Assembly: GCA_018780035.1 (NCBI GenBank)
Contig: JADMKE010000014.1
Location: forward strand, 137,271-173,657
Direction of reading: 5' to 3'
Origin: Candidatus Sericytochromatia bacterium
GTDB lineage: Bacteria; Cyanobacteriota; Sericytochromatia; UBA7694
DNA: 36,387 bases
The notes below the pieces were generated by a model. That model did not search any database, was not told where the DNA came from, and was given only the letters and a program-made list of their open reading frames with translations. Below, piece by piece: positions 11,269 through 35,800 of the stretch (within the stretch, counting starts at the first letter, position 1; each line of letters begins with the position of its first letter). The position numbers and the translations under genes are program-made.

Positions 11269-12065
11269 GGTTTCCTCGTTTCGTTGGGCATGGCCCAACC
11301 CAAATTATCGTCTTGGAGATAGGTCAGGGCTTTTAAGGGTTTTTCAGCCAATTGCTCAAAATAGCTCTGCAAGCAAGCTTGCAATTGCCGCATAGCCTGG
11401 GGTTTCAGCTCGGGCAAGCTCTGCGGGGGCCCCTCAGAGGCCTGTAACCCCCGCAGAACTTCGACCTGTTCAAAGCTCAGATAGCGGCAGGTCTCTTTGC
11501 GTTTGCACGCTTCACAGCGCAAGCCGCCGTGTAAGGTATCAAAAAAGTGGTAATCGCGGGGGCGAAAGTCAATTTCACATTGGGCACAAAAATCCCAGTC
11601 CTGCTGATAGCCCAATTGCTCCAGATAATGCAATTCAAACCAGAGCAAAAGTGGCAGGGCTTCAGTCCCAGCGGAAAGCGCCTCTAAACCGTGTAAAAAC
11701 AGCGCAAAGAGATATTCATTGGGATCTTCTTCTTGGGAGAAAGAGGCGATCAACTCACCCATGGCAAGCGCATGGGTCAAGGCATGGTAATCGCGGTTCA
11801 GACCCGAAAAAGAGCGCAGGGCATCACATTGGGTGATTTTATGCAGGTTGCGTCCCCGCTCCAAGACCAGATGGTTGCAGCGCAACAGGTCCAAACGACC
11901 CGCAAGCTTGCTGCGGGGCCGACGCACACCCTTGGCAATGGAGCGCAAAACACCAAATTTGCGGCTGTAGAGCACCACAATTCGGTCGTGCTCGTTATAG
12001 TCGTAGTGCTTGAGGACAAAGGCCTCTACTTCAAACGGATGCCGGTTGGGCGGCAAGTTCGACAT
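11265..12065 (-). CDS. recO: DNA repair protein RecO.
   Basis: The N-terminal OB-fold reads 'EAFVLKHYDYNEHDRIVVLYSRKFG'. The C-terminal zinc-finger reads 'CAQCEIDFRPRDYHFFDTLHGGLRCEAC'. ATG 12065 is used; the track uses TTG 12074. The stop overlaps the htrA start. Confidence 0.9.
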   Translation of the reverse strand: MSNLPPNRHPFEVEAFVLKHYDYNEHDRIVVLYSRKFGVLRSIAKGVRRPRSKLAGRLDLLRCNHLVLERGRNLHKITQCDALRSFSGLNRDYHALTHALAMGELIASFSQEEDPNEYLFALFLHGLEALSAGTEALPLLLWFELHYLEQLGYQQDWDFCAQCEIDFRPRDYHFFDTLHGGLRCEACKRKETCRYLSFEQVEVLRGLQASEGPPQSLPELKPQAMRQLQACLQSYFEQLAEKPLKALTYLQDDNLGWAMPNETRKP

Positions 12066-12318
12066 GGTCGACAATACCTACAATCACACAGCGAATGGGG
12101 GCGTTTTCATAATGCAGGATCTGACGGGAGGAAGTGCCTTCTTCGAGCAACAACACCCGATCTCCCACACCGGCCTGAACCTGATCGATGGCGATCACCT
12201 GCTCTCCGGTGTCTTCTCCATAGGGATCGATCGGCTGGACCATGAGCAACTTGCGTCCTTGCAGGGCCTCATGTTTGATCGTGGCAACCACGCTACCAAT
12301 GACTCGTGCCAGTCTCAT
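12031..12318 (-). CDS. EutN/CcmL/PduN-family bacterial-microcompartment vertex (pentamer) protein. It is an orphan with no shell hexamer genes nearby.
   Basis: The 95-aa protein MRLARVIGSVVATIKHEALQGRKLLMVQPI...VQAGVGDRVLLLEEGTSSRQ...PIRCVIVGIVDHVEL aligns by eye along its length with E. coli EutN / cyanobacterial CcmL. A perfect AAGGAG SD lies 7 nt upstream of ATG 12318. Its 3' end overlaps recO by 35 nt. Confidence 0.8.
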   Translation of the reverse strand: MRLARVIGSVVATIKHEALQGRKLLMVQPIDPYGEDTGEQVIAIDQVQAGVGDRVLLLEEGTSSRQILHYENAPIRCVIVGIVDHVELAAQPASV

Positions 12319-14005: not shown

Positions 14006-14098
14006 ATGCAAATCAATCCAGCAAAATGGATTGAAGCACCCCTGAATTTTAATACAGAGAAATCCCAGAAACAAGGGCTGTTTGCGAGGAAAATGTGA
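14006..14098 (+). CDS. Candidate 30-codon upstream ORF / leader peptide whose stop overlaps the ftcD GTG start.
   Basis: ATG 14006 has AAGAGG 8 nt upstream. The peptide is MQINPAKWIEAPLNFNTEKSQKQGLFARKM. The TGA at 14096-14098 overlaps GTG 14095 of ftcD. There is no homology evidence, and it could be a chance ORF in AT-rich leader sequence. Confidence 0.25.
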   Translation: MQINPAKWIEAPLNFNTEKSQKQGLFARKM

Positions 14099-14994
14099 AA
14101 AAAACACTTTTAGAATGTGTGCCCAATCTCAGCGAAGGTCGCGATCCCTTGGCACTTCAAGCTTTGTATCTGCAATTGTCACAATTGCCAGAATTGCAAA
14201 TTTTGGATCATTCAGCGGATTCTGACCACCACCGCTCGGTGTGGACCTGGGTAGCCCCCCCTGAGGTGATCGAACAGGCCCTGATGTGTCTGTTCCACTG
14301 GGCAGAAAAACAGATTGATCTGCGCAAACATCAAGGGGCCCACCCCCGGATCGGGGCCGTTGATGTGATTCCCTTGATTCCAATCCAAGGCATCAGCAAG
14401 CATGAGGCTGTGGCATTTTCCAAAGCCTTGGCAGCCCGTTTGGCCAAGCGTTTTCAATTGCCCATTTTTCTCTACGAAGCCTCTGCCACCCAAGCACAGC
14501 GCCGCAATTTGGCATCCATTCGCCAAGGCCAGTTTGAAGGGCTGTCTGAGAAACTCAAACAACCCGCATGGTTCCCTGATTTCGGTCCTGCCCAGCCCCA
14601 TCCGAGCTTGGGCGCCACGGCCCTGGGTGTCCGGGACTTTTTGATCGCCTTTAATCTCTGTTATGGCGCCCAGGAGCTGGCTTCAGTCAAAGAACTCGCG
14701 CGCAGGCTGCGGGCCAGCAATGGGGGACTGCCTGCGGTCAAAGCCCTGGGACTCTGGCTGCCCCAACGCCAAAAGAGCCAGCTTTCATTTAATTTAACCG
14801 ACTTTCGTGTCACCTCATTGCAAGACTTAATCCAGGCGGTTTTAAAACAGGGGGCGGAGTTGGGTATTACCCCCGAAGCGGGAGAGATCATCGGCCTGAT
14901 TCCCGCAGCTGCCACTTGGCCCGGTTTTGAAACTGCCCTCAAACTGAGCGACCGCCGGGATGTCGTTCTCGAACACCACCTGCGCAAGATTTAA
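14095..14994 (+). CDS. ftcD: Glutamate formimidoyltransferase (formiminotransferase domain only, no cyclodeaminase domain).
   Basis: The N-terminus 'MKKTLLECVPNLSEGRD' matches the conserved ECVPNFSEGR start of formiminotransferases. The start is GTG with GAGGAAA upstream. Length is about 300 aa. Confidence 0.8.
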   Translation: MKKTLLECVPNLSEGRDPLALQALYLQLSQLPELQILDHSADSDHHRSVWTWVAPPEVIEQALMCLFHWAEKQIDLRKHQGAHPRIGAVDVIPLIPIQGISKHEAVAFSKALAARLAKRFQLPIFLYEASATQAQRRNLASIRQGQFEGLSEKLKQPAWFPDFGPAQPHPSLGATALGVRDFLIAFNLCYGAQELASVKELARRLRASNGGLPAVKALGLWLPQRQKSQLSFNLTDFRVTSLQDLIQAVLKQGAELGITPEAGEIIGLIPAAATWPGFETALKLSDRRDVVLEHHLRKI

Positions 14995-15108: not shown

Positions 15109-15984
15109 TTGATGCAACCGACCTCTCTCTCTCGCATTATTCAGGATACCCACGCCCTGCCCTCTATTCCTGGCGTCGCCAGTCGCTTACTCGAACGCCT
15201 GCAAGATCCCGAAACCCACGCAGCTGAAATCAGCACCCTGATTGAAATGGATCCGGCTCTCAGCCTCAAAGTATTACAATTGGCCAATTCTGCCATGTTT
15301 GCCCCCGCCAGCCCCGTGCATTCCATTGAAAGAGCCATCATGCTCTTGGGGTTTAATACAGTTCGTTTTTTGATTACCGGGGTCGCTGTTTTACAGGTCG
15401 CCCAAAAGATGCCCGAAAATGAAATTATCAATCCCGAAAATTTCTGGCGTTCGGCCTTTCGGGGCGCGGTTGCAGCCAAATATTTCGCAGAGCAAAGCAA
15501 TTATCCCGAATCCAATGAGGCCTATTTGGCAGGTCTGATTCGCGAAATAGGCAAAATCGCCTTGATTCAATGTGCTTATGAGACCTATTTAAGCGTGGTA
15601 AAGGCCGCCCAAAACGCCAATGTAGCTGTGGTACACAAAGAAAGGGAGATCTTGGGTTTTACCCACGCCGATGTCGGCGCCTTGCTGGCCGTCAAATGGA
15701 ATCTCGATGAAGGCCTGGCAAGTGTGATTGCGGCTTACCCTTTTCCTGGCGATCACCCCGAACTGAACAATTTACATCTTGCCACTGTTTTGCACTTGGC
15801 CGACCGTTTTGCCGCCCTAGAGACCCCAACGGCAGCGCATTTTGAGCAGATTTTAGCCGAACTCGATCCGCTGGCAATCCAGTATTGGTCCCAAGAGCAA
15901 GGCCGCAATCTCAGCCCCGAAAGCCTTGAAATGGATTGGCAGGCCTTAAAATCCCAACTCGATCAGGGCAACCCATTCATCTAA
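15109..15984 (+). CDS. HDOD-domain signalling protein.
   Basis: The sequence 'LPSIPGVASRLLERLQDPETHAAEISTLIEMDPALSLKVLQLANSAMF...GLIREIGKIAL...FTHADVGALLAVKW' is a typical HDOD domain. The start is TTG 15109 or ATG 15112, with GAGGAG upstream. Confidence 0.85.
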   Translation: MMQPTSLSRIIQDTHALPSIPGVASRLLERLQDPETHAAEISTLIEMDPALSLKVLQLANSAMFAPASPVHSIERAIMLLGFNTVRFLITGVAVLQVAQKMPENEIINPENFWRSAFRGAVAAKYFAEQSNYPESNEAYLAGLIREIGKIALIQCAYETYLSVVKAAQNANVAVVHKEREILGFTHADVGALLAVKWNLDEGLASVIAAYPFPGDHPELNNLHLATVLHLADRFAALETPTAAHFEQILAELDPLAIQYWSQEQGRNLSPESLEMDWQALKSQLDQGNPFI

Positions 15985-16049
15985 GCTCCGCTGAACCCGC
16001 TTAAACGCATTTAATCACATCCGTTCTCAATTAATGAACGGACTTGGTG

Positions 16050-16078
16050 TTGCTTTAAAAACAGGTATGGTATATTGT
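16050..16078 (+). promoter_or_regulatory. Sigma-70-like promoter candidate for the lone atpE.
   Basis: The candidate is TTGCTT-N15-TATATT (or N17-TATTGT) in a 175-bp AT-rich intergenic region. It implies a roughly 75-nt leader. Inferred only. Confidence 0.3.
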
Positions 16079-16159
16079 GTTAAGTCTGCAAAGAAGCATA
16101 TAAACTTAGCACAATAAACACAATTAAATTATAAACACTGAAAGGAATCAAGAAAGAAT

Positions 16160-16411
16160 ATGGCAGCTGATCCCTCCATTCTCTCCTCTTCCGTTATGGC
16201 CGCCGCCGGTGCAGTAGGCCTCGCTGGTATCGGTGCTGCTATCGGTATCGGTATCTCCTCTAGCAAAGCGCTCGAAGGTATGGCCCGCCAGCCAGACGCA
16301 GAGCCCTTGCTCGCCCGTAACATGATTCTTGCCATGGCATTTATGGAAGCTATCGCTATTTACGGGTTGGTCGTTGCACTGATTCTGCTGTTTGCTAACC
16401 CCTTTAAATAA
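16160..16411 (+). CDS. atpE: F-type ATP synthase subunit c (proteolipid), monocistronic here.
   Basis: The 83-aa protein has two transmembrane helices. The Gly-rich motif is '[13 protein letters not shown]'. The ion-binding Glu is in '[24 protein letters not shown]'. The C-terminus is cyanobacterial/chloroplast-like. No other atp genes flank it. Confidence 0.85.
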
Positions 16412-16496
16412 ATGGCAAAACAGCGGTTGTCACTTGTTGACTCTGAGACTTTAACGTCTCGGTAGACAATAACTGCAACTGCCCACTAAAAAGCTT

Positions 16497-16541
16497 AAAG
16501 CCAGCTGAAACCAGCTGGCTTTTGTTTTGGCTGTTTTTTTT
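16497..16541. terminator. Bidirectional rho-independent terminator between atpE (+) and the convergent lipoprotein gene (-).
   Basis: An 8-bp stem gccagctg / cagctggc (16500-16507 and 16512-16519) has a 4-nt loop. A long T-tract 'ttttgttttggctgtttttttt' follows on the plus strand. On the minus strand A/T-rich flanks pair as U-tracts. Confidence 0.6.
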
Positions 16542-16546
16542 AAAGA

Positions 16547-17176
16547 CTAACGGCGGAGTTGGACCTGTTGCCCTTGCATGGCATCAATCATCAGTGGTGG
16601 CATGGGCGCCATCTGAGGGATCTTCCAAACCAAGCGCTGATCCAGCATCTGCAATTCAAGCGGAGAGACCGGATAGGCCACAAACTCTGAATAACTGCGG
16701 GCCTTTTTTAAGACCGCAGAACTGTCATAGGTCCAAGCTCTGACTGCGAGGGGCTCTAATCCGGACAAAGTCCCGGCATTGATCTCTTGAGAGCCCATTT
16801 GCAAATGTTCGCTGCGGGAAAAAACCCGGAAGGCCTTGCCTGGGCGATTGGGCGAGACAAAAGAGATCGTCCAGCTGGCATCGATGGGAGTGTCATTGAG
16901 ACCATTGGCAGAGATAAACCGGCCTTCAAGCGAAACAGGTTCGGCTTGGGGAGACCAGCGCAGCGCCAGTTCCTCGGCCTTGGCAAAAATATCTTTGGCT
17001 GTGCCAATGGTGGTCCGGGTCGCGGATTGAGGTGCCGATTGACGTTGAAGCTGGACAGGTGGATTGCCAACAGGGGCAAAAGCAGGTGCAGAACTACATG
17101 AAACCAGTAAAAGCGCAGTGAGTGGGATCAGCCCCAAGCGAAATGGGGAGAGTAGATCGAAGCGCGCTTTTAACAT
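16547..17176 (-). CDS. Lipoprotein of unknown function (209 aa).
   Basis: The internal ATG 17176 gives 'MLKARFDLLSPFRLGLIPLTALLLVSCSSAP', a signal peptide with a lipobox. AAGGA lies upstream. The track's longer N-terminus (17305) lacks signal features. Confidence 0.6.
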   Translation of the reverse strand: MLKARFDLLSPFRLGLIPLTALLLVSCSSAPAFAPVGNPPVQLQRQSAPQSATRTTIGTAKDIFAKAEELALRWSPQAEPVSLEGRFISANGLNDTPIDASWTISFVSPNRPGKAFRVFSRSEHLQMGSQEINAGTLSGLEPLAVRAWTYDSSAVLKKARSYSEFVAYPVSPLELQMLDQRLVWKIPQMAPMPPLMIDAMQGQQVQLRR

Positions 17177-17343
17177 AAACCACAATCCTTTAAAATTTTC
17201 CGGGTGAATTAAACTTATCTTATCATAAAGCATAGATTGTTTTTCCCCTAATCTTGTCTCAAAACAGAGCCTAAATTGCGGTAAACTGCACTGAATGGTC
17301 TTCAATTAAAGCTGAAAGGCAGCCCAAACGGATCCCTTTTCTT

Positions 17344-18236: not shown

Positions 18237-18713
18237 ATGGCTTCACCCAAAACCAACGCAGCAAGGATTCTCGACCAACTCGGAATCGCCTACGATTTGC
18301 TCAGTTACGCCGTCGATGAAAGCGATTTAAGCGCCCCCGCTGTGGCCCAGAAAATTGGGATCGAAGCGGCCCAGACCTTTAAAACCCTGGTGGGCAAAGG
18401 CGACAAAACCGGGGTGATCATGGCCTGCCTGCCGGGCGATGCCGAACTCAACCTCAAGGCCCTGGCTGCTGCCAGCGGCAATAAACGGGTCGAACTGGTG
18501 GCCCTCAAAGAGATTCAGCCCTTGACCGGGTATATCCGGGGCGGGGTCTCACCGCTCGGGGCGAAAAAGGCCTATCCGGTTTTGATTGATGAGCTGGCGC
18601 AGGTATTTGATCGCATTGCCGTCAGTGCCGGACAGCGCGGCCTGCAGCTCTTTTTGCAGCCGGAAGATCTTCGCAGGGCCTGCCACGGCGTCTGGGCGGC
18701 CCTGAGCCAATAG
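18237..18713 (+). CDS. ybaK: Cys-tRNA(Pro)/Cys-tRNA(Cys) deacylase YbaK.
   Basis: The 158-aa protein contains '[16 protein letters not shown]...[22 protein letters not shown]...[11 protein letters not shown]', a strong match to YbaK/EbsC. Confidence 0.85.
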
Positions 18714-19721
18714 GGCATTGCTGAGTCTGAGCAAGCTGCGCAGGCCCCGGCTGGCCCAATCGGGGCGGGTTGTGAGCAGCGTCTCGCGGCGCAGGGCCCC
18801 GAGCCAGTCGGCAGGCGTGAGCGCGTGGTGCATGCCATCGAGGGAAAAAATTTGAATTTCACTCACCCCGGCCTGCCGGGCCGCTTCGCAGTCTGCGGCC
18901 AATTCAGCGGGATCGTGGTACCCCGACTCACTCAATTTGCCCACGGTGCCCACCACGCCCAAAGCCGCCTGCAAGGGCTGTTGAAAGCATTTTCGCGCGT
19001 CTTCAAAATAGCCTTTGACAAAGTGCGGTGAGAGCGAAAAACCAAGCAAATCGCGAAAGCTGCTGCGGTAGGTCATCAGTGAAAGGGCATCCCAATTGAC
19101 CCCTGTGACGGGCAATTGCAAAAGTTCCTGAAAACAGGTATTGCCCGCTTGGGCATCTTCGACCACCAGGGGATAGGTCACGGCCCAGGCCTGGGTACCA
19201 CGCTGGTGCAATTCGTGAATCAGGCGATTAAAGACCTCCCGCGCGGCAGCCAATTTGAGGGCCCGCTGGCTTTGGCGCAAATGGGCCCAGAGCGCAGGCA
19301 AGTGGCGCTGCAATAAGAGCTGACGCAGATGTAAACTGTCAGCCAAAGAGGGTTCTAGATCTGCAATCAAAACTGGCAGGGGCAATTTTTCGGCATCGAT
19401 CCAGTCCATCAAACGGTGGGCCGTCTGAGCAAAGATCTCAGCATTGCCAGCATGGGGCCAATAGCCCTGGGCATCAGGCAAGAGCAGCCAGGCCCGCACG
19501 GGCACCTCCAGCAGCGCGGCTTGGAGCAAGAGAGCCCGCAATTCAGGGCTGGCGATTTGGCTTGAAGGAATCGCCAAATTGAGGGCCAGTGCGTGTTTGC
19601 GCAAAAGAGGCAGATCACCGGCCACCCAATGATAGGGCATGAATTCGGCCCAGAGGGCATACGCAGGGTTCATCTGGTCTTGTGCCTTTAATTTGCCTTT
19701 AAACAGGGTGATCTTTTGCAT
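18549..19721 (-). CDS. Hypothetical protein (390 aa). Its 3' end overlaps ybaK convergently by 165 nt.
   Basis: It is a long ORF with an ATG start and no recognisable motifs. Codon usage matches the neighbours. The overlap with ybaK suggests either a genuine convergent overlap or an extended 3' end. Confidence 0.5.
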
Positions 19722-30476: not shown

Positions 30477-32809
30477 TAGTTAAAGCCTCCATTGGCGTTG
30501 AGGGTGATTGAAGGCAAAATCGCCGCCACAGCGTCACTGCTGAGCACATCCACGATCACGGTGATGTTGATATCCCCCGGCAAATTGAGAGCGGTGGGCA
30601 CAGGCACGATCAACTGGTTGCCATTTACAGCAGCAGCCGGGACTTCAATCGTCCCAAAGCGCACGCGGTTATTGCCCGCTAAAAGGGTGTCAAAACCCGT
30701 TCCTGTCAGGGTCAGGGAGCTTCCTCTGACGAGACGAGCCTTGCCAGAGACAATGCCATGAGGTGTGGCCAGAGCCGTAATCTGGGGTTTCACTTTAAAG
30801 GACAAAGCATTGCTGTTGGCACCATTGACCTTGACAGAGACATTCTGGGCCCCAAAGATGCCGGCGGGTACCGTCACGGTGAGACTGTTGGCTGTCGCGG
30901 CGGTCACTGTGGCCGAGACATTGCCAAAATTCACCAGATTTTCAGCTGCAACTGCACTGAAATTGGAACCAGTCAACGTGATCGTGCTGCCAATCGGAGC
31001 TATAGTAGAGGCAAGGGTCGAAAGGGTGGGTTGATTGAGGGCCGAAGCCCCGCCGCCTCCGCTCCCCCCGCCGCTGCTTCCCCCACCGGAAGACTGACGC
31101 CAAGTAGACGTCGTGGCTTTGCCTGTCACAGTATCATTGCCGCGCTTGACATCCACACGGAATTCATAGCGGCTATCAGGACTGAGGCCACTTGCAAGAT
31201 ATTTGAGTTTTTCCCCGGCTTGGCCATTGATTTTGGCAAGCAGGCGATTGCTTTCAAAAATTTCATAAGTGGCTGCGGCAGCAATCCCCGTAAATTCAAG
31301 TTGAATTTGGGTATATTCATTGTTTGGGAATGGATAAGCCTTGATCTGCAGACCAGTAGCCGAAGCGCTGGGGCTCGGAGAAACCGAAGGCGTGATCTGG
31401 GGAGAGGGAGTCGGAGAAGCGGTCGGCAATGCTGTCGGTCTGGCACTAGGAGATGCTGAGGGCTGAAGGCTGGGCGCGGGTTGGGGAGTGGGAACGGTTT
31501 CCGGTAACTGGGCCTGCAAAAGTGTCAATTCACAAGGGCCCAGCGGGGGAAATGGATTGGAAAGGATGACGGTTCCTTGTGAATTGTTCAGGTTCACAAT
31601 CTCTTTTCCGGTGTTATTGAGCTGTTTATTCTGAATATTTTCACGGACCGAAGAGATGGCAATGGCCGTTTCTGCGTTTGATATTTTTGTAATTTTTGAA
31701 TCAAAAATATTTATATTTTTATTTAAATCCAACAAGATAGACTGACTATCTCCCAAAATAATTTGATTAAGCGTCTGATTGATTTTGGTAATTTCATTGC
31801 TGGTGAGACTCACCATATCCATCACACTTCCGAGAGAGGTGTCCTGGTCATTACATTGTGGCAGCGAGTTGCTCAGATTGATGATTGAGCCCAAATTTTC
31901 AGCGACTGGCTTGAGAGGGCTGGGCTTTGGCGAAGAAAATAGCACAGAGGTGGTATTTGGGGAGGGGACTTGCTGAATCTGAAAACCCTCAGAGGGGGCA
32001 GGTGCTAAAGCCGCAATTAAGTTGGCTTGTTTGAGCTGTCGCTGAATTTCCTGGCCCATGAGTCCATTGAGATAGCGAATCTGAATCAAAGATTCCAAGC
32101 GCGCCACCAGATTGGGCATTGAGCTTAGAAAGGTATTTTGAATATTCTCTAAGCTTTCTTTTTCCAATCCCACGCGACCATCTTGCTGGGAGCCGCGTAT
32201 AATATCTGCCAAGACTGTTGAGCGGGGCGAAACTTCCACAGTCAATGAGACAGGCTTATTTGGCACATCTACGAGGGCACGGGCAATTAATTGACTTTGT
32301 TGATTGAGGGCCAAGACCTCATATCTGAACCCCCCTGGTAGGGCATTGATCTGAAAATGGCCCGTGGCATCTGTTTGCGTGCTGGCCAATTCTTGACCAT
32401 CGGGTAAATAGATTTTGACAGTTTGATAAGCCAGTCCCTCCAAAACAGCTTTATTGCCTTGAGGCATCAATAAACGCCCTTTCAGAGCCAAGGGCGATGC
32501 TTGCTTGAGCTGAGCGAGAACGGCTTGTTTCAGCTGGGCTTGTGCTCGCGCTTGCAATGCTGGTTCGACAGTTACCACTGAGGGGAGTTCTATTTCTTCA
32601 GCTGTCTGGAAATAGCTGTTTAAGGCCTGTCTTAAGCGTTCCCTTTCACTGTTTTTTTCACTCTGGCTTAAAGGAGGGAGAACCGCAGGTGTGCTTAAAA
32701 GCAAATTGCTGCCCAAAGGCCCAGTCTCTTGGCAGCCCAGTAAAAGGCTGAAACAGAGACAGGTAAAGGTCAGTGATTTTTTAAATCGAAAATGAGATGG
32801 ACGTATCAT
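30476..32809 (-). CDS. Surface lipoprotein (about 777 aa). Domains in order: CarboxypepD_reg-like beta-sandwich, low-complexity N/I/K-rich region, Pro/Ser/Thr/Ala linker, Fn3-like domain, Gly/Ser linker and two C-terminal IPT/TIG domains.
   Basis: ATG 32809 (MIRPSHFRFKKSLTFTCLCFSLLLGC, lipobox) has GAGGAG 10 nt upstream; the track start is TTG 32827. CarboxypepD_reg-like motif is 'KIYLPDGQELASTQTDATGHFQINALPGGFRYEVLA'. The Fn3-like segment is 'YEIFESNRLLAKINGQAGEKLKYLASGLSPDSRYEFRVDV'. The TIG motif is 'TIAPIGSTITLTGSNFSAVAAENLVNFGNVSATVTAATANSLTVTVPAGIFGAQNVSV'. It is a paralogue of the N-terminal region of the 1157-aa protein. Confidence 0.85.
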   Translation of the reverse strand: MIRPSHFRFKKSLTFTCLCFSLLLGCQETGPLGSNLLLSTPAVLPPLSQSEKNSERERLRQALNSYFQTAEEIELPSVVTVEPALQARAQAQLKQAVLAQLKQASPLALKGRLLMPQGNKAVLEGLAYQTVKIYLPDGQELASTQTDATGHFQINALPGGFRYEVLALNQQSQLIARALVDVPNKPVSLTVEVSPRSTVLADIIRGSQQDGRVGLEKESLENIQNTFLSSMPNLVARLESLIQIRYLNGLMGQEIQRQLKQANLIAALAPAPSEGFQIQQVPSPNTTSVLFSSPKPSPLKPVAENLGSIINLSNSLPQCNDQDTSLGSVMDMVSLTSNEITKINQTLNQIILGDSQSILLDLNKNINIFDSKITKISNAETAIAISSVRENIQNKQLNNTGKEIVNLNNSQGTVILSNPFPPLGPCELTLLQAQLPETVPTPQPAPSLQPSASPSARPTALPTASPTPSPQITPSVSPSPSASATGLQIKAYPFPNNEYTQIQLEFTGIAAAATYEIFESNRLLAKINGQAGEKLKYLASGLSPDSRYEFRVDVKRGNDTVTGKATTSTWRQSSGGGSSGGGSGGGGASALNQPTLSTLASTIAPIGSTITLTGSNFSAVAAENLVNFGNVSATVTAATANSLTVTVPAGIFGAQNVSVKVNGANSNALSFKVKPQITALATPHGIVSGKARLVRGSSLTLTGTGFDTLLAGNNRVRFGTIEVPAAAVNGNQLIVPVPTALNLPGDINITVIVDVLSSDAVAAILPSITLNANGGFN

Positions 32810-32832
32810 ATAGCTGGGGCTCCTCAAAATAT

Positions 32833-35800
32833 TTACCGCAATGTGACAGTGCGAGGCTTAGAAATTGCACCGTCTTTGGTTTTTACCCATAAATAGAGCT
32901 TGGTCGGTCTTTTGGGCAATTTTTCACTGACAGAATCTTTGATGAGTTTGGCAGACATTTCAACCAAACCGTTATATTTGTATAAAGACAGGGATTTCGC
33001 AACCGAGCTGAGCTCAAGGTTTATAACCAATTTCTCTCCCTTGGGCCCATTTTTACCTGGTTCATAGGGAGAAATAAAGATTTGATTGTCTTTAATACTC
33101 TCTGAAACATGGTACGTCTTTAAAGTGAATAAAGTATCAAAAGAGATCTGTTTATTGTCGATCACCTTATCCAGAATGCTGGCAATCTCAACAGAGGTGT
33201 TGATCACTGTCCCTGAATATTCAAGTTGAACAGGGTGAGTGCCATACAACCCCATTGGTACCTTCACATCTATTTCCGAAGCAGATATGACACTTGGGGT
33301 TACCTTTTCAGCAGAGCCTACTTTAACAGAGGTATTACCAAGCGCCTGCCCCTTGATTCTGACTCTGTTGTCCCCGTATTCATTTTCTTGAGAAGTAAAG
33401 ATCGGGCTGTCGGTATTCAAGTTTAATTCAAACGTGAAGGGATTGGGCAGTTCGAATTTGGCTGGGTCTTTTTCTGGATTGGTTTTATTGGCCACGACAA
33501 ATTTGGTTGAATATTTGGTTGGGTTAATATAATCCTGATACGGACAGATAATTTTTTTCGCTTGTGCATCTTCTTGGCAAGCCCGATAAAAACTGACGCC
33601 ATTTTGATTGGCAATTTGAGCATAAAAGGACACATAGGGCGAATCAAAAGGGGGCAAATTAGCGTAATTGCCAATTTCGATATGGCTTGGTTTGGGCTCA
33701 ATATTTGAGATGGTCGGAACCAGAAAATCAAGTTTTACCCCATTGGAAACCAAATTCCCAAATTCAACTTTGACTTCTTGATTACCAGCCAACTTAGGCG
33801 CTCCTGCCTCTATGAGGGTTTCTTGCGGAGTTAAGGTCACTTTGGTCACATCAACATCTTGCCCGCCAATCTTGAGCTTGACTTGATCCGAGTTCAGGGC
33901 AGAAGTCGAAATCTTTAAGCGTTCTCCCTGTCTCACCTGGGTGATGTTTTGGCCGGCTGCATTTTGGATTTTATTGAGCGTGATTTCTTTGGTTGTTGCT
34001 CCCAGGGTGATCGGTTTGGCCTCTGAGATGATATTGTGATTGGTGACAGTCACCAATGTCTTTCCCTCTATGCCCTGAGGAACAATGACCGTCAAAGCCA
34101 CTTCGCGCGCACCCACTTGATTCGTACATCTGGCGCAATAAGGGCTGGGGATATTTACAAAGTTGAATTTAGAAGCAATTTCTTTAACAGACTCAACAAC
34201 AGCTATTTTATCGCCAAATTTGACAATATTCTGATCTTTTCTAGGATCAAAAACTCCTTGTATTTCTATTTTTTGAAATTCAGCTGCATTTTCAGGTAAA
34301 ATACCTGAAATTTTGGGGGTAATGAACAAAGGTACTTTATGAACATAGGTATTGGCGTATCCCAGATCAGACAAGAATAACTCGAGCGTTTGCTCACCCA
34401 ATAGCTGTTTGGGAAAGTTATCGATGGTCAGCAATGTGCGCTCTTGGGAGATCGATCTGCGAATAACATTGACCTTCACTATCTCTTTTTTATCGGTCAC
34501 CAAGTGGTTTACGACAAAGCTCTTATCTGAAAGATTGATTGCCAATTCCAATGTAGTGCCATTTTGAACCTGTTTGGAAAGAATCTCGGTGGTGGGTTCA
34601 ACAAAAAGAAAGCGATGTTTGGTCTTTAAATTATCCAGATAGAGCTTATAAACCCCGATATATTCTTTGGGCAGTGTTAATTTTAACTCACGGTCTGAAA
34701 CAAACTCTGGGATAAGCTCTTTTTGGAATGCTTGGGTTTGCAAATGATTCGTGAGAATAATTTTGTGATTTTTACCAAAGAGGCCATTGAGGGTGATTGT
34801 CCCACCTCTTTTGGTGTAAGTGGAATTTGTCTCCCCCATAATACCTGCCAGGGGCGTAAATTGGACGGCATTGGACGATTGCTGATTGACCATCAGCTTG
34901 ATATCGAGTGGATTGACAGAGCTGAGCATGGGAACTTCGACTTGCAGAGAAATAATCTGTTTGCCTTTGTCATCCAACTCAAAAGACATTCCGATATTTT
35001 TGGCCAAGACGTCTCCAAACATCACTTTGTTTTCAGCAAGGTTCTTAGAAAAATCCGTTGTTTTGAGGGTGACCGTATCCCCCACAGCAGCGGTGGTTTT
35101 ATCCAGGGTAATATTTGCCAGGGGAGGCAGGGGAGTCGACATCACAATGGGGAGAGGTGGAGTGCTTGTACTGCAGTTTCTGTTTCCCACCCGACCAATA
35201 ATCCCTGTTAAATCTGATTTTAATTCCGTTGTAACTGCTTCACGCAGATCCATGGCAGTGTAAAGGGTTGAAATTTGGGTGTTTTTGTTCAGGGACGTTT
35301 GGATGGTCAACAAAGGAGAAATCAACAGATGGGGAGAGTTGATATTGTTATTCAGGCTTTCAATCGATTGAATCATTTCGGGCCCCACACCAGACAGTCC
35401 ATTTAATTGGGTTAGCAATTTAATTTGCTTTGGGGACCCCCCGTTTATCAGACCTATTTGTTGAACTTTAAAGCCCGTTTGCATTTGCCCAGAGCGCTGA
35501 GAACAGGCCTGAGAACGCTTGAATACAGATTGGGTTTGAAAATCGTTCAGTTTTGTTTGCACACCCGCTTGTATTTCGTCTTGCACCTCGCTGACCAGAT
35601 TGAGCAATGACAGTCCGGACACAAGTCGGAAGAAATGCTCTGGATTTTGTGTCAGATATTTCTCAATTTGTGCCACAGAAATCTGTTCCAGGCCTGAACG
35701 CCCATCGCGCGAAGCCAGCCAAACAGCCTCAGCAACGGCTGTCGTTTCCAAAGTGAGATTTTGTTCAATACTATCAGAGGGCGGGGTGGCAGGCAGATCG

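What the first reader, a model, noticed from the sequence alone, without database searches (positions are those of the whole stretch)
15985..16550. Monocistronic atpE with a cyanobacterial-type sequence, its own promoter and a strong bidirectional terminator
The F-type ATP synthase c-subunit gene stands alone between an HDOD gene and a convergent lipoprotein gene. A 175-bp AT-rich leader with a sigma-70-like promoter lies upstream, and a canonical hairpin plus T-tract terminator lies downstream. Its C-terminus '[16 protein letters not shown]' is chloroplast/cyanobacterial-like, which gives a taxonomic clue. In cyanobacteria the c subunit sits inside the atp1 operon. A detached c-ring gene suggests either an operon split, to boost c-subunit stoichiometry, or a second specialised c subunit.
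Basis: partly seen in the sequence, partly recalled or inferred. Interest (0 to 1): 0.5.

Follow-up and report, generated by a model that had tools for sequence, protein, structure and literature searches.

The report
Stand-alone ATP synthase c-subunit gene
This is the ordinary proton-carrying rotor (c) subunit gene of the ATP synthase in a non-photosynthetic relative of cyanobacteria, expressed alone because this group has scattered its ATP synthase genes, an arrangement already known in other bacteria.

Summary
ORF 16160-16411 (+) encodes an 83-aa F-type ATP synthase c subunit that passes the Pfam and TIGR01260 cut-offs. It lies between an HDOD gene and a convergent lipoprotein gene. A 175-nt, 66% A+T leader precedes it, and an 11-bp hairpin with T-runs on both strands follows it.

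The organism is a Sericytochromatia bacterium, a non-photosynthetic sister class of the oxygenic cyanobacteria. The "cyanobacterial" clue is therefore right only at phylum level.

In five further sampled Sericytochromatia lineages the c gene is solitary. It always lies downstream of a formiminotransferase gene, behind a position-conserved extended -10 box (TGnTATnnT) and a GAAAGGAA ribosome-binding element, and each lineage has its own terminator hairpin.

The a-subunit gene is also solitary in this lineage (UDG-a-groES), with no c gene beside it. No b or F1 gene lies within 10 kb of any c or a gene examined. One deeper lineage keeps atpI-a-c.

The best reading is the housekeeping c gene of a dispersed atp gene set, transcribed alone, probably at a high level. 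A second specialised c subunit is not supported. The ion site predicts H+ coupling.

I could not locate the F1 genes. Campylobacter has the same solitary atpB/atpE layout. Interest is low to moderate.

The parts
16020..16042 (+). Stem-loop (TCCGTTC-9 nt-GAACGGA) just after the HDOD stop codon. It is probably the 3' hairpin or weak terminator of the HDOD transcript, and it separates HDOD from the c-gene promoter.
   Evidence: Read directly from the sequence. Strain variants GAGCGGA, GAATGGA and GAGTGGA keep pairing only through G-U wobble on the + strand RNA. No strong U-tract follows.
16050..16055 (+). Weak -35-like hexamer TTGCTT, 15 nt upstream of the -10.
   Evidence: Sequence. It is not conserved outside the Blackallbacteria-like lineage, and the spacer falls outside the 16-18 nt rule of the scan.
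16068..16076 (+). Extended -10 promoter element TGgTATATT.
   Evidence: T16068, G16069, T16071, A16072, T16073 and T16076 are invariant in 8 Sericytochromatia lineages (alignment A1).
16083..16159 (+). Predicted 5' UTR of about 76 nt, 53% A and essentially unstructured. The transcription start is inferred, not mapped.
   Evidence: Composition. The fold has z = +1.29, and 188 of 200 shuffles fold at least as well. No Rfam match.
16140..16147 (+). Conserved GAAAGGAA element, the probable Shine-Dalgarno (AAGGA), 13 nt before the ATG.
   Evidence: GAAAGGAA is readable 12-13 nt upstream of the start codon in all 8 lineages compared, although MAFFT mis-registers one of them (L013).
16160..16411 (+). 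atpE/atpH: F-type ATP synthase subunit c, 83 aa. It has the proton-binding Glu62 (FMEA), Tyr67, the loop ARQPD, and helix-1 motif GIGAAIGIG.
   Evidence: PF00137 and TIGR01260 above cut-off. PDB alignments. Strain variants differ only by 2-5 synonymous codons; against the CG17 relative there are 32 synonymous and 9 non-synonymous codon differences.
16422..16482 (+). Long imperfect stem-loop in the 3' UTR, possibly a stabilising element for the mRNA 3' end.
   Evidence: MFE fold. RNAalifold on 6 strain variants keeps the core (about 16434-16472), with 3 pairs changed on both sides. The evidence is modest.
16497..16541 (.). Bidirectional intrinsic terminator: an 11-bp hairpin (16497-16522) plus the + strand T-tract to 16541. 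The - strand reads the same hairpin followed by AAGCTTTTTA.
   Evidence: Scan hits on both strands. The stem is invariant in strain variants. Every other lineage has a different G+C-rich hairpin with a T-run after its c gene.
16547..17233 (-). Convergent gene for a predicted lipoprotein (signal peptide ...LTALLLVSC). It is a neighbour that shares the terminator, not part of the ATP synthase.
   Evidence: ORF. Called as 228 aa in identical contigs. No Pfam or NCBIfam family.
15109..15984 (+). HDOD-domain gene, the upstream neighbour. It sits between the formiminotransferase gene and the c gene only in this lineage.
   Evidence: PF08668 at 180.7 bits. It is absent between FTCD and c in L013-L018, L021 and L023.

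Best explanation
[quoted passage not shown] It is organised as its own monocistronic transcription unit.

Proposed mechanism:
- Transcription starts at a class-conserved extended -10 promoter, TGgTATATT at 16068-16076.
- The mRNA carries an A-rich, unstructured leader of about 76 nt with a conserved AAGGA ribosome-binding element.
- It ends at a strong hairpin terminator that also stops the convergent lipoprotein gene.

In this class the atp genes are dispersed. The a-subunit gene is solitary as well, with its own extended -10 promoter. The high copy number of c per enzyme (about 10-15 copies against 1 a) would then be met by a dedicated strong promoter, leader and stable mRNA. Cells with an intact operon instead tune translation within the operon.

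Shown: gene identity, solitary position, conservation of the promoter, SD and terminator, the solitary a gene, and purifying selection.
Inferred: the transcription start site, high expression, the stoichiometry rationale, H+ specificity, and that this is the only c gene in the genome.
For: - Identity: PF00137 and TIGR01260 are above cut-off. The closest solved structures are chloroplast and Spirulina c rings.
- Solitary position: there are no other atp genes in the 36-kb window. tblastn with b, delta, alpha, gamma, beta and epsilon queries finds nothing in the roughly 550 kb of window and related loci held, which cover up to 10 kb each side of each c or a gene.
- Conservation within the species: the exact same protein sits in the same synteny on the 10 places shown; 21 contigs were read that carry it.
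- Conservation across the class: the c gene is solitary after the FTCD gene in lineages at 89, 72, 69, 66 and 66% identity.
- Regulatory elements: TG, TAT and the final T of the -10 box are invariant in 8 lineages, and GAAAGGAA is readable 12-13 nt before the ATG in all 8. Each lineage has its own hairpin-plus-T-run terminator.
- Terminator and UTRs here: for the terminator, for the unstructured leader.
- Solitary a subunit (UDG-a-groES or a-metG): found in Blackallbacteria CG17, in a contig from the same JGI sample as a c-exact contig, and in two further genomes. Its own TGnTAAAAT box and AAGGAGAACGGTTGTG start region are conserved.
- Selection and codon use: only synonymous differences among strains, and 32 synonymous against 9 non-synonymous versus CG17. 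Codon choice is skewed to GGT (6 of 8, background 0.22) and TCC (4 of 7, background 0.12).
- Ion site: Glu62 and Tyr67 are kept. There is no Ser/Thr after the Glu and no Gln/Glu in helix 1.
Against: - The b, delta, alpha, gamma, beta and epsilon genes of this organism were not located. A second c gene beside them is therefore not formally excluded.
- No transcript data exist. Read-through from the HDOD gene is possible, since it is on the same strand, 175 nt away, and its hairpin lacks a clear U-tract.
- The -35 is poor and the generic promoter scan finds nothing in the leader.
- The SD-to-ATG spacing of 13 nt is longer than optimal.
- The codon-bias argument rests on only 83 codons.
Confidence: 0.78

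Rival explanations
1. The gene is a second, specialised c-subunit paralogue, for example for a different ring size or growth condition. The main c gene would sit in an atp operon elsewhere.
For: - The F1/b cluster of this organism was never found, so its content is unknown.
- The proton-site Gln of cyanobacterial c is replaced by Ile here (Met or Ile in the other lineages).
- The protein fails the NF005608 cut-off.
Against: - The a-subunit gene of the same lineage has no c gene next to it.
- Among the 120 listed homologues, the only c named Blackallbacteria and the only one named Sericytochromatia both belong to this family.
- The solitary FTCD-c locus is conserved across the class, and the Gln to Ile/Met change is a class-wide trait rather than a paralogue feature.
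- Strict purifying selection and codon skew fit a core gene.
Confidence: 0.08
2. The gene is not truly monocistronic. It is the distal gene of an HDOD-c (or FTCD-HDOD-c) operon, and the leader is only an intercistronic spacer.
For: - All three genes are on the same strand.
- The hairpin at 16020-16042 has no strong U-tract.
- No canonical -35/-10 pair was found by the scan.
Against: - The HDOD gene is absent from this position in four other lineages, yet the extended -10 box, leader type and SD stay at the same distance from the c start codon.
- The 175-nt gap is A+T-rich.
- Wobble-only substitutions maintain an RNA hairpin right after HDOD.
Confidence: 0.1
3. The gene encodes the c subunit of a Na+-translocating or N-type ATPase. 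Some Sericytochromatia carry such an enzyme.
For: PMC8047818 reports N-ATPase alpha/beta sequences in some Sericytochromatia.
Against: - TIGR03322 (N-ATPase c) scores 61.4 against a cut-off of 130.85.
- The Na+ ligands are absent: Ile replaces the helix-1 Gln/Glu, and Ala-Ile replaces Ser-Thr after the Glu.
- From general knowledge, N-ATPase genes form one compact operon, and none is present here.
Confidence: 0.02
4. The gene is a recent horizontal acquisition of a cyanobacterial c gene, inserted as a single-gene cassette.
For: - The best PDB matches are chloroplast and cyanobacterial c rings.
- G+C over 16001-16500 is lower than in the flanks (0.44 against about 0.52).
Against: - The same locus and the same promoter architecture occur in lineages down to 66% identity, which indicates vertical descent.
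- Identity to cyanobacterial and chloroplast c is only 57%.
- The low G+C comes from the UTRs. CDS GC3 is 0.54 against a background of 0.57.
Confidence: 0.02

Closest known systems
Chloroplast/cyanobacterial ATP synthase subunit c (AtpH; spinach c14 in PDB 4mjn/6fkf, Spirulina c15 in 2wie)
   Same: - The best solved matches are 79.5 and 77.8 bits, each 57% identical.
- The length is the same.
- Shared motifs: AFMEA...[15 protein letters not shown], with the proton-binding Glu and Tyr, and the ARQP(E/D) loop.
   Different: - It fails the cut-off of its best-scoring NCBIfam model, NF005608 (96.6 against 128). That this model is the chloroplast/cyanobacterial one is my recollection, not something the tool output states.
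- The site Gln (GQG) is Ile here and Met or Ile in the other Sericytochromatia lineages. Helix 1 reads GIGAAIGIG, as in E. coli, rather than GIGPGVGQG.
- It is not inside the a:c:b':b:delta:alpha:gamma operon that most cyanobacteria and plastids keep (PMC11124002).
Dispersed atp genes of Campylobacter
   Same: [quoted passage not shown] Here too, c and a are each solitary.
   Different: - It is an unrelated phylum, so the arrangement arose independently.
- The location and make-up of the b/F1 cluster in Sericytochromatia was not established.
- One Sericytochromatia lineage still has atpI-a-c together.
E. coli atpE within the atpIBEFHAGDC operon
   Same: - Both must over-produce c relative to the other subunits.
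- Both have an A/U-rich, unstructured region upstream of the c start codon. The E. coli atpE translational enhancer is cited from my own knowledge (McCarthy and Bokelmann 1988, listed in the references of PMC11124002).
   Different: In E. coli the excess is achieved by translation within one polycistronic mRNA. Here a separate promoter and terminator are available. The E. coli protein uses Asp61 and scores only 48.7 bits.
Monocistronic atpH mRNA of chloroplasts
   Same: [quoted passage not shown] That these yield an abundant atpH-only mRNA is my own knowledge. The outcome is similar, an abundant c-only message.
   Different: In plastids the message is made by processing a polycistronic precursor. 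Here the single-gene unit is hard-wired in the DNA.

Membership tests
F-type ATP synthase subunit c (PF00137 / TIGR01260) | Scores above the curated HMM cut-offs | tested here: met
   PF00137 at 66.3 bits against 24. TIGR01260 at 78.2 against 43.95. NF005363 at 74.1 against 71.
F-type ATP synthase subunit c (PF00137 / TIGR01260) | Two-helix hairpin of about 70-90 aa with a polar loop R-Q/N-P and an essential carboxylate in the middle of helix 2 | tested here: met
   83 aa, loop ARQPD, and Glu62 in FMEA aligned with the chloroplast and Spirulina proton-binding Glu. No 3D model was made.
F-type ATP synthase subunit c (PF00137 / TIGR01260) | Partner subunits (a, b, delta, alpha, gamma, beta, epsilon) encoded in the same genome | tested here: inconclusive
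   An a subunit was found in the same lineage and in the same JGI sample as a c-exact contig. The b and F1 genes of this organism were not located. The literature reports a standard F-type enzyme in the class.
Chloroplast/cyanobacterial c subunit (NCBIfam NF005608, equivalog) | Scores above the model's cut-off | tested here: not met
   96.6 bits against 128. That NF005608 is the chloroplast/cyanobacterial model is my recollection; the tool output calls it only 'F0F1 ATP synthase subunit C'.
Chloroplast/cyanobacterial c subunit (NCBIfam NF005608, equivalog) | Gene lies in the a:c:b':b:delta:alpha:gamma cluster | tested here: not met
   It is solitary between the HDOD and lipoprotein genes. The cyanobacterial layout is taken from PMC11124002.
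Chloroplast/cyanobacterial c subunit (NCBIfam NF005608, equivalog) | Proton site Gln (helix 1) plus Glu and Tyr (helix 2) | tested here: not met
   Glu62 and Tyr67 are present, but the Gln is replaced by Ile (Met or Ile in the other Sericytochromatia).
Na+-binding c subunit (Ilyobacter tartaricus type) | Gln/Glu in helix 1 plus Ser/Thr directly after the helix-2 Glu | tested here: not met
   Ile occupies the helix-1 position and Ala-Ile follows Glu62 (sequence). 1yce scores only 59.3 bits. The motif definition comes from general knowledge.
N-ATPase c subunit (TIGR03322) | Scores above the model's cut-off | tested here: not met
   61.4 bits against 130.85.
Intrinsic (Rho-independent) terminator, bidirectional | G+C-rich hairpin followed by a T-run on each strand | tested here: met
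   Stem 16497-16522 with 11 pairs, reported on both strands. However, the count of terminator-like sites in the region (5) is not above shuffles (3.9 +/- 2.3). The support comes from position, stem length and conservation.
Intrinsic (Rho-independent) terminator, bidirectional | Transcripts actually end there | not testable with these tools
   Needs Term-seq or RNA-seq.
Extended -10 sigma-70 promoter | TGn immediately upstream of a TATAAT-like hexamer | tested here: met
   TGgTATATT at 16068-16076, matching 5 of 6 in the hexamer. TG, TAT and the final T are invariant in 8 lineages.
Extended -10 sigma-70 promoter | Mapped transcription start about 7 nt downstream | not testable with these tools
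   No transcript data are available.
Campylobacter-type dispersed atp organisation | atpE (c) and atpB (a) each at a separate locus | tested here: met
   c. a.
Campylobacter-type dispersed atp organisation | The remaining genes are clustered as b'-b-delta-alpha-gamma-beta-epsilon | tested here: inconclusive
   The only such cluster retrieved (L096) is of unknown taxon. It has 43.5% G+C against 51.6% here, and its alpha subunit is only 67% identical to Sericytochromatia alpha over the N-terminal ~150 aa compared.

The most novel reading that the evidence does not exclude
Sericytochromatia may run a distinct variant of the cyanobacterial-type F-ATP synthase. Its features would be:
- a rotor subunit under separate transcriptional control, through a class-conserved promoter and leader;
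- a proton-binding site that has lost the Gln ligand (Ile or Met instead);
- an a subunit with a roughly 100-residue His/Ser/Thr/Glu-rich tail, predicted to face the periplasm.

Independent control of c supply, or a second c gene not yet found, could then allow condition-dependent changes in ring size or composition, and so in the H+/ATP ratio.
Probability: 0.07. Interest if true: 0.55.

Novelty: new member of a known kind. Interest (0 to 1): 0.28.

Why it matters
The gene itself is routine and is already labelled "ATP synthase F0 subunit C" in public MAG annotations. Three modest points follow from the work.

- Comparative: the a:c:b':b:delta:alpha:gamma arrangement is kept in most cyanobacteria, and partly in plastids (a:c:b:alpha). 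It is not kept in their non-photosynthetic sister class. One Sericytochromatia lineage retains atpI-a-c, while the others have a and c each alone.
- Practical: the conserved extended -10 box, A-rich leader and terminator give a clean example of what a probably strong promoter and UTR set looks like in an uncultured class.
- Annotation: c-subunit genes found away from atp operons in these MAGs should not be read as extra copies or contamination.

Tried and rejected
1. Generic promoter scan. No -35/-10 pair was found in the leader. The promoter call rests on phylogenetic footprinting instead.
2. Rfam on 15800-16700. No match, so there is no known riboswitch or leader RNA.
3. Genome-collection scan with the c protein. 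It returned one true relative, the species' own MAG, which names the organism. It was therefore useless for counting c copies per genome.
4. Locating the F1 genes.
   - I rebuilt 153 aa of a Sericytochromatia alpha subunit (GCA_002783405.1) from the interleaved alignment in the supplement of PMC8047818.
   - The protein search with it returned only short fragments, and the 99% hit has no contig on record.
   - The best hit on a long contig, L096, carries parAB-b'-b-delta-alpha-gamma-beta-epsilon without a or c. Its taxon could not be established: cluster look-up gave no organism names, its alpha is 67% identical to Sericytochromatia alpha over the N-terminal ~150 aa compared, and its G+C is 43.5%. 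I do not use it as evidence.
   - The metagenome scan with the alpha N-terminus was saturated by the generic pattern GDGIARIY, with a best identity of 65%.
5. Cryptic b or delta genes among the unannotated ORFs of the window. None were found.
6. N-ATPase, Na+-type and horizontal-transfer readings. All were rejected; see the rival explanations.
Full report
**What is there.** The window contains an 83-codon ORF at 16160-16411 (+). It encodes [83 protein letters not shown]. The protein matches Pfam ATP-synt_C at 66.3 bits (cut-off 24). It also passes the NCBIfam equivalogs TIGR01260 (78.2 against 43.95) and NF005363 (74.1 against 71). Its best-scoring model, NF005608, stays below its cut-off (96.6 against 128); I believe from memory that this is the chloroplast/cyanobacterial model. 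The N-ATPase model TIGR03322 also stays below cut-off (61.4 against 130.85).

Upstream lies an HDOD-domain gene at 15109-15984 (+). Downstream lies a convergent ORF ending at 16547, with a lipobox signal peptide (...LLLVSC) and no family match.

The rest of the 36-kb window encodes the following, with no further atp gene:
- an AraC regulator, an NmrA-like protein and a LuxR response regulator;
- MutL, an HtrA protease and RecO;
- a C11 peptidase, a formiminotransferase (FTCD) and a DcsG-like ligase;
- YbaK, a glyoxalase II, a TPR-GT41 protein and histidine kinases;
- giant TIG/NHL proteins.

**The transcription unit.** The HDOD-c spacer is 175 nt and 66% A+T.

- Promoter. The generic promoter scan finds nothing in the spacer. 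I aligned the c-gene upstream regions of eight lineages, which average only 55% identity. A block stands out in which T16068, G16069, T16071, A16072, T16073 and T16076 are invariant. These are the diagnostic bases of an extended -10 promoter (TGnTATnnT; here TGgTATATT). A weak -35 (TTGCTT, 15-nt spacer) is present only in the closest lineage.
- 5' UTR. A start near 16083 would give a 5' UTR of about 76 nt that is 53% A. It is no more structured than shuffled sequence: z = +1.29, and 188 of 200 shuffles fold at least as well. It has no Rfam match.
- Ribosome-binding element. GAAAGGAA sits 12-13 nt before the ATG in every lineage, read from the raw flanks and the alignment.
- 3' UTR. After the stop codon the 3' UTR folds strongly (z = -6.9). 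It forms a long imperfect stem-loop (about 16422-16482), for which a few compensatory changes among strains give modest support.
- Terminator. An 11-bp hairpin at 16497-16522 has a T-run on each strand and is reported on both strands by the terminator scan. The convergent lipoprotein gene stops 25 nt from this hairpin, so 'bidirectional terminator' is a fair description.
- Other lineages. Each has a different G+C-rich hairpin with a T-run after its c gene.
- HDOD 3' hairpin. A 7-bp hairpin at 16020-16042 follows the HDOD stop codon. It varies among strains only by substitutions that keep G-U pairs on the + strand RNA. I read it as the 3' structure of the HDOD message.

**Whose gene it is.** The identical protein was carried by 21 contigs read from metagenome assemblies, and the 10 places shown all have the same neighbours. 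The only 100% match among species-representative genomes is a MAG titled 'Candidatus Sericytochromatia bacterium isolate ME2015-09-13_3300035666_group6_bin207'. The nearest named homologues are Candidatus Blackallbacteria CG17 (89%) and another Sericytochromatia MAG.

In line with that, the closest solved c subunits are spinach chloroplast (79.5 bits) and Spirulina (77.8 bits), well ahead of Ilyobacter (59.3), Bacillus PS3 (51.4) and E. coli (48.7). Identity to each of the first two is only 57%.

**Is it a displaced copy, an extra copy, or the normal state?** Relatives at 89, 72, 69, 66 and 66% identity show the c gene alone, always directly downstream of the FTCD gene. Their downstream neighbours are unrelated to one another. 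The HDOD gene is inserted between FTCD and c only in the Blackallbacteria-like lineage.

One more distant lineage (GCA_964422885.1; c of 101 aa) has atpI-a-c followed by a non-atp gene. I used its a subunit as a probe. The a-subunit gene of Blackallbacteria CG17 and of three further relatives is itself solitary:
- In three of these genomes the order is UDG - a - groES - groEL.
- In the fourth, a is followed by metG.
- One of the three UDG-a-groES contigs comes from the same JGI sample (3300056999) as a contig carrying the exact c protein of this window.

These a genes have their own conserved TGnTAAAAT box and AAGGAGAACGGTTGTG start region. A tblastn search with b, delta, alpha, gamma, beta and epsilon queries found nothing in the roughly 550 kb of window and related loci held. 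These loci cover up to 10 kb on each side of each c or a gene.

So the solitary c gene is the ancestral state for most of the class and part of a general dispersal of atp genes. No second c gene sits where one would expect it, next to a.

**Selection and expression hints.** Strain variants differ from the window by 2-5 codons, all synonymous. The CG17 relative differs by 32 synonymous and 9 non-synonymous codons. Codon choice departs from the window's background in the direction usual for highly expressed genes: GGT 6 of 8 against 0.22, TCC 4 of 7 against 0.12, and GCT/GCA enriched. This is suggestive only, given 83 codons.

**Ion specificity.** Glu62 (FMEA) and Tyr67 align with the proton-binding Glu and Tyr of the chloroplast and Spirulina rings. 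The helix-1 Gln of those rings is Ile here and Met or Ile in the other Sericytochromatia. Glu62 is followed by Ala-Ile rather than the Ser-Thr of Na+-binding rings. I therefore predict H+ coupling, using the motif definitions from established structural work on I. tartaricus and Spirulina c rings. Helix 1 reads GIGAAIGIG, the E. coli-like form of the glycine packing motif. Ring size cannot be inferred from it.

**Mechanism proposed.**
- Shown: a complete, conserved, stand-alone gene with promoter-like, ribosome-binding and terminator elements. These are conserved by position across a class while the surrounding sequence diverges.
- Inferred: the gene is transcribed alone from the extended -10 promoter. 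It is translated efficiently from an unstructured A-rich leader. Its mRNA is protected by 3' stem-loops, which would give the large molar excess of c over the single-copy subunits.

In E. coli the same need is met by translational tuning inside one operon. In plastids it is met by processing and protein-mediated stabilisation of atpH mRNA termini (PMC11124002).

**Comparison with what is known.** Most cyanobacteria keep a:c:b':b:delta:alpha:gamma plus beta:epsilon (PMC11124002), so this locus is not a member of that arrangement. A dispersed layout with solitary atpB and atpE is documented for Campylobacter jejuni and C. coli (PMC7717971). From memory, the same holds for Helicobacter pylori. 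Sericytochromatia are reported to have a standard F-type enzyme, and some have an additional N-ATPase (PMC8047818). The present c is not of the N type.

**What I could not do.** I did not find the b and F1 genes of this organism. I reconstructed a Sericytochromatia alpha N-terminus from a paper supplement and spent the last protein search, the last contig look-up and the metagenome scan on it. The output was fragments, one contig of unknown taxon (L096), and a scan saturated by a generic peptide pattern. 'Only c gene in the genome' therefore remains an inference.

**Verdict.** A second specialised c subunit is unlikely. The taxon is Sericytochromatia, not oxygenic cyanobacteria. This is a new example of a known kind of organisation and is of low-to-moderate interest.

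Noticed in passing
L024:10001-11008, L094:7648-8613, L095:10001-11011 (a-subunit genes of relatives; not in the window): The solitary a subunits are 321-336 aa instead of about 230-270. The ATP-synt_A core starts near residue 105. It is preceded by a low-complexity tail rich in His, Ser, Thr and Glu, for example repeated S-T-E-H-S. The extreme N-terminus is conserved (MQPAxA-EH) and the protein ends in ...AEHH. From general topology knowledge this tail should face the periplasm, next to the proton entry channel. Its function is unknown.
   Followed up: partly
window 14095-14994 with 16160-16411; L013, L016-L018, L021-L023: The formiminotransferase (FTCD) gene lies directly upstream of the c gene in every Sericytochromatia lineage with a solitary c. 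Nothing else in the neighbourhood is conserved. It could be a frozen accident or shared regulation; I have no explanation.
   Followed up: partly
window 16508-16511 versus L004:10253-10400 and L007: The 4-nt loop of the terminator hairpin (plus the adjacent closing pair, absent in L004/L007) is inverted between strains: CAGCTGAAACCAGCTG here and CAGCTGGTTTCAGCTG in L004/L007. The + strand of one equals the - strand of the other, while the stem is unchanged. This looks like palindrome flipping.
   Followed up: no
window 12031-12318 (-): A lone 95-aa EutN/CcmL-family gene (microcompartment vertex protein) overlaps the start of recO. Pfam PF03319 is on record for the identical contig L001, and the ORF is confirmed. 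No shell or enzyme genes for a microcompartment occur in the window, and the organism belongs to a non-photosynthetic class.
   Followed up: no
L019:9804-10109 and L021:10001-10354: Some Sericytochromatia c subunits carry C-terminal extensions (101 and 117 aa). The L021 tail ends with a second ...VPHPFKG that echoes the normal ...VANPFK end. It could be a read-through, a duplication artefact, or a real tail.
   Followed up: no
window 18237-18713 (+) and 18549-19721 (-): The YbaK-type deacylase gene and a convergent 390-aa ORF of unknown function overlap by 165 nt at their 3' ends. The same overlap is called in the related contigs.
   Followed up: no
window 31500-35500: G+C drops to 0.41-0.45, against about 0.52-0.58 elsewhere, across the genes for giant TIG-domain proteins of 783 and 1157 aa. 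This may be a horizontally acquired or fast-evolving surface-protein block.
   Followed up: no
L096:6539-14281: A contig of unknown taxon carries parA-parB-(122 aa)-b-delta-alpha-gamma-beta-epsilon without a or c. The delta and alpha genes are broken into fragments, which suggests frameshifts or assembly errors. It illustrates the layout that would complement solitary a and c genes, but it cannot be assigned to Sericytochromatia.
   Followed up: partly
L010-L012:12751-16190: In the Blackallbacteria CG17-like relatives the c gene lies about 2.5 kb upstream of genes with NuoG-, NuoH- and NuoI-type Pfam domains, that is, respiratory complex I genes. This linkage is absent from the window.
   Followed up: no
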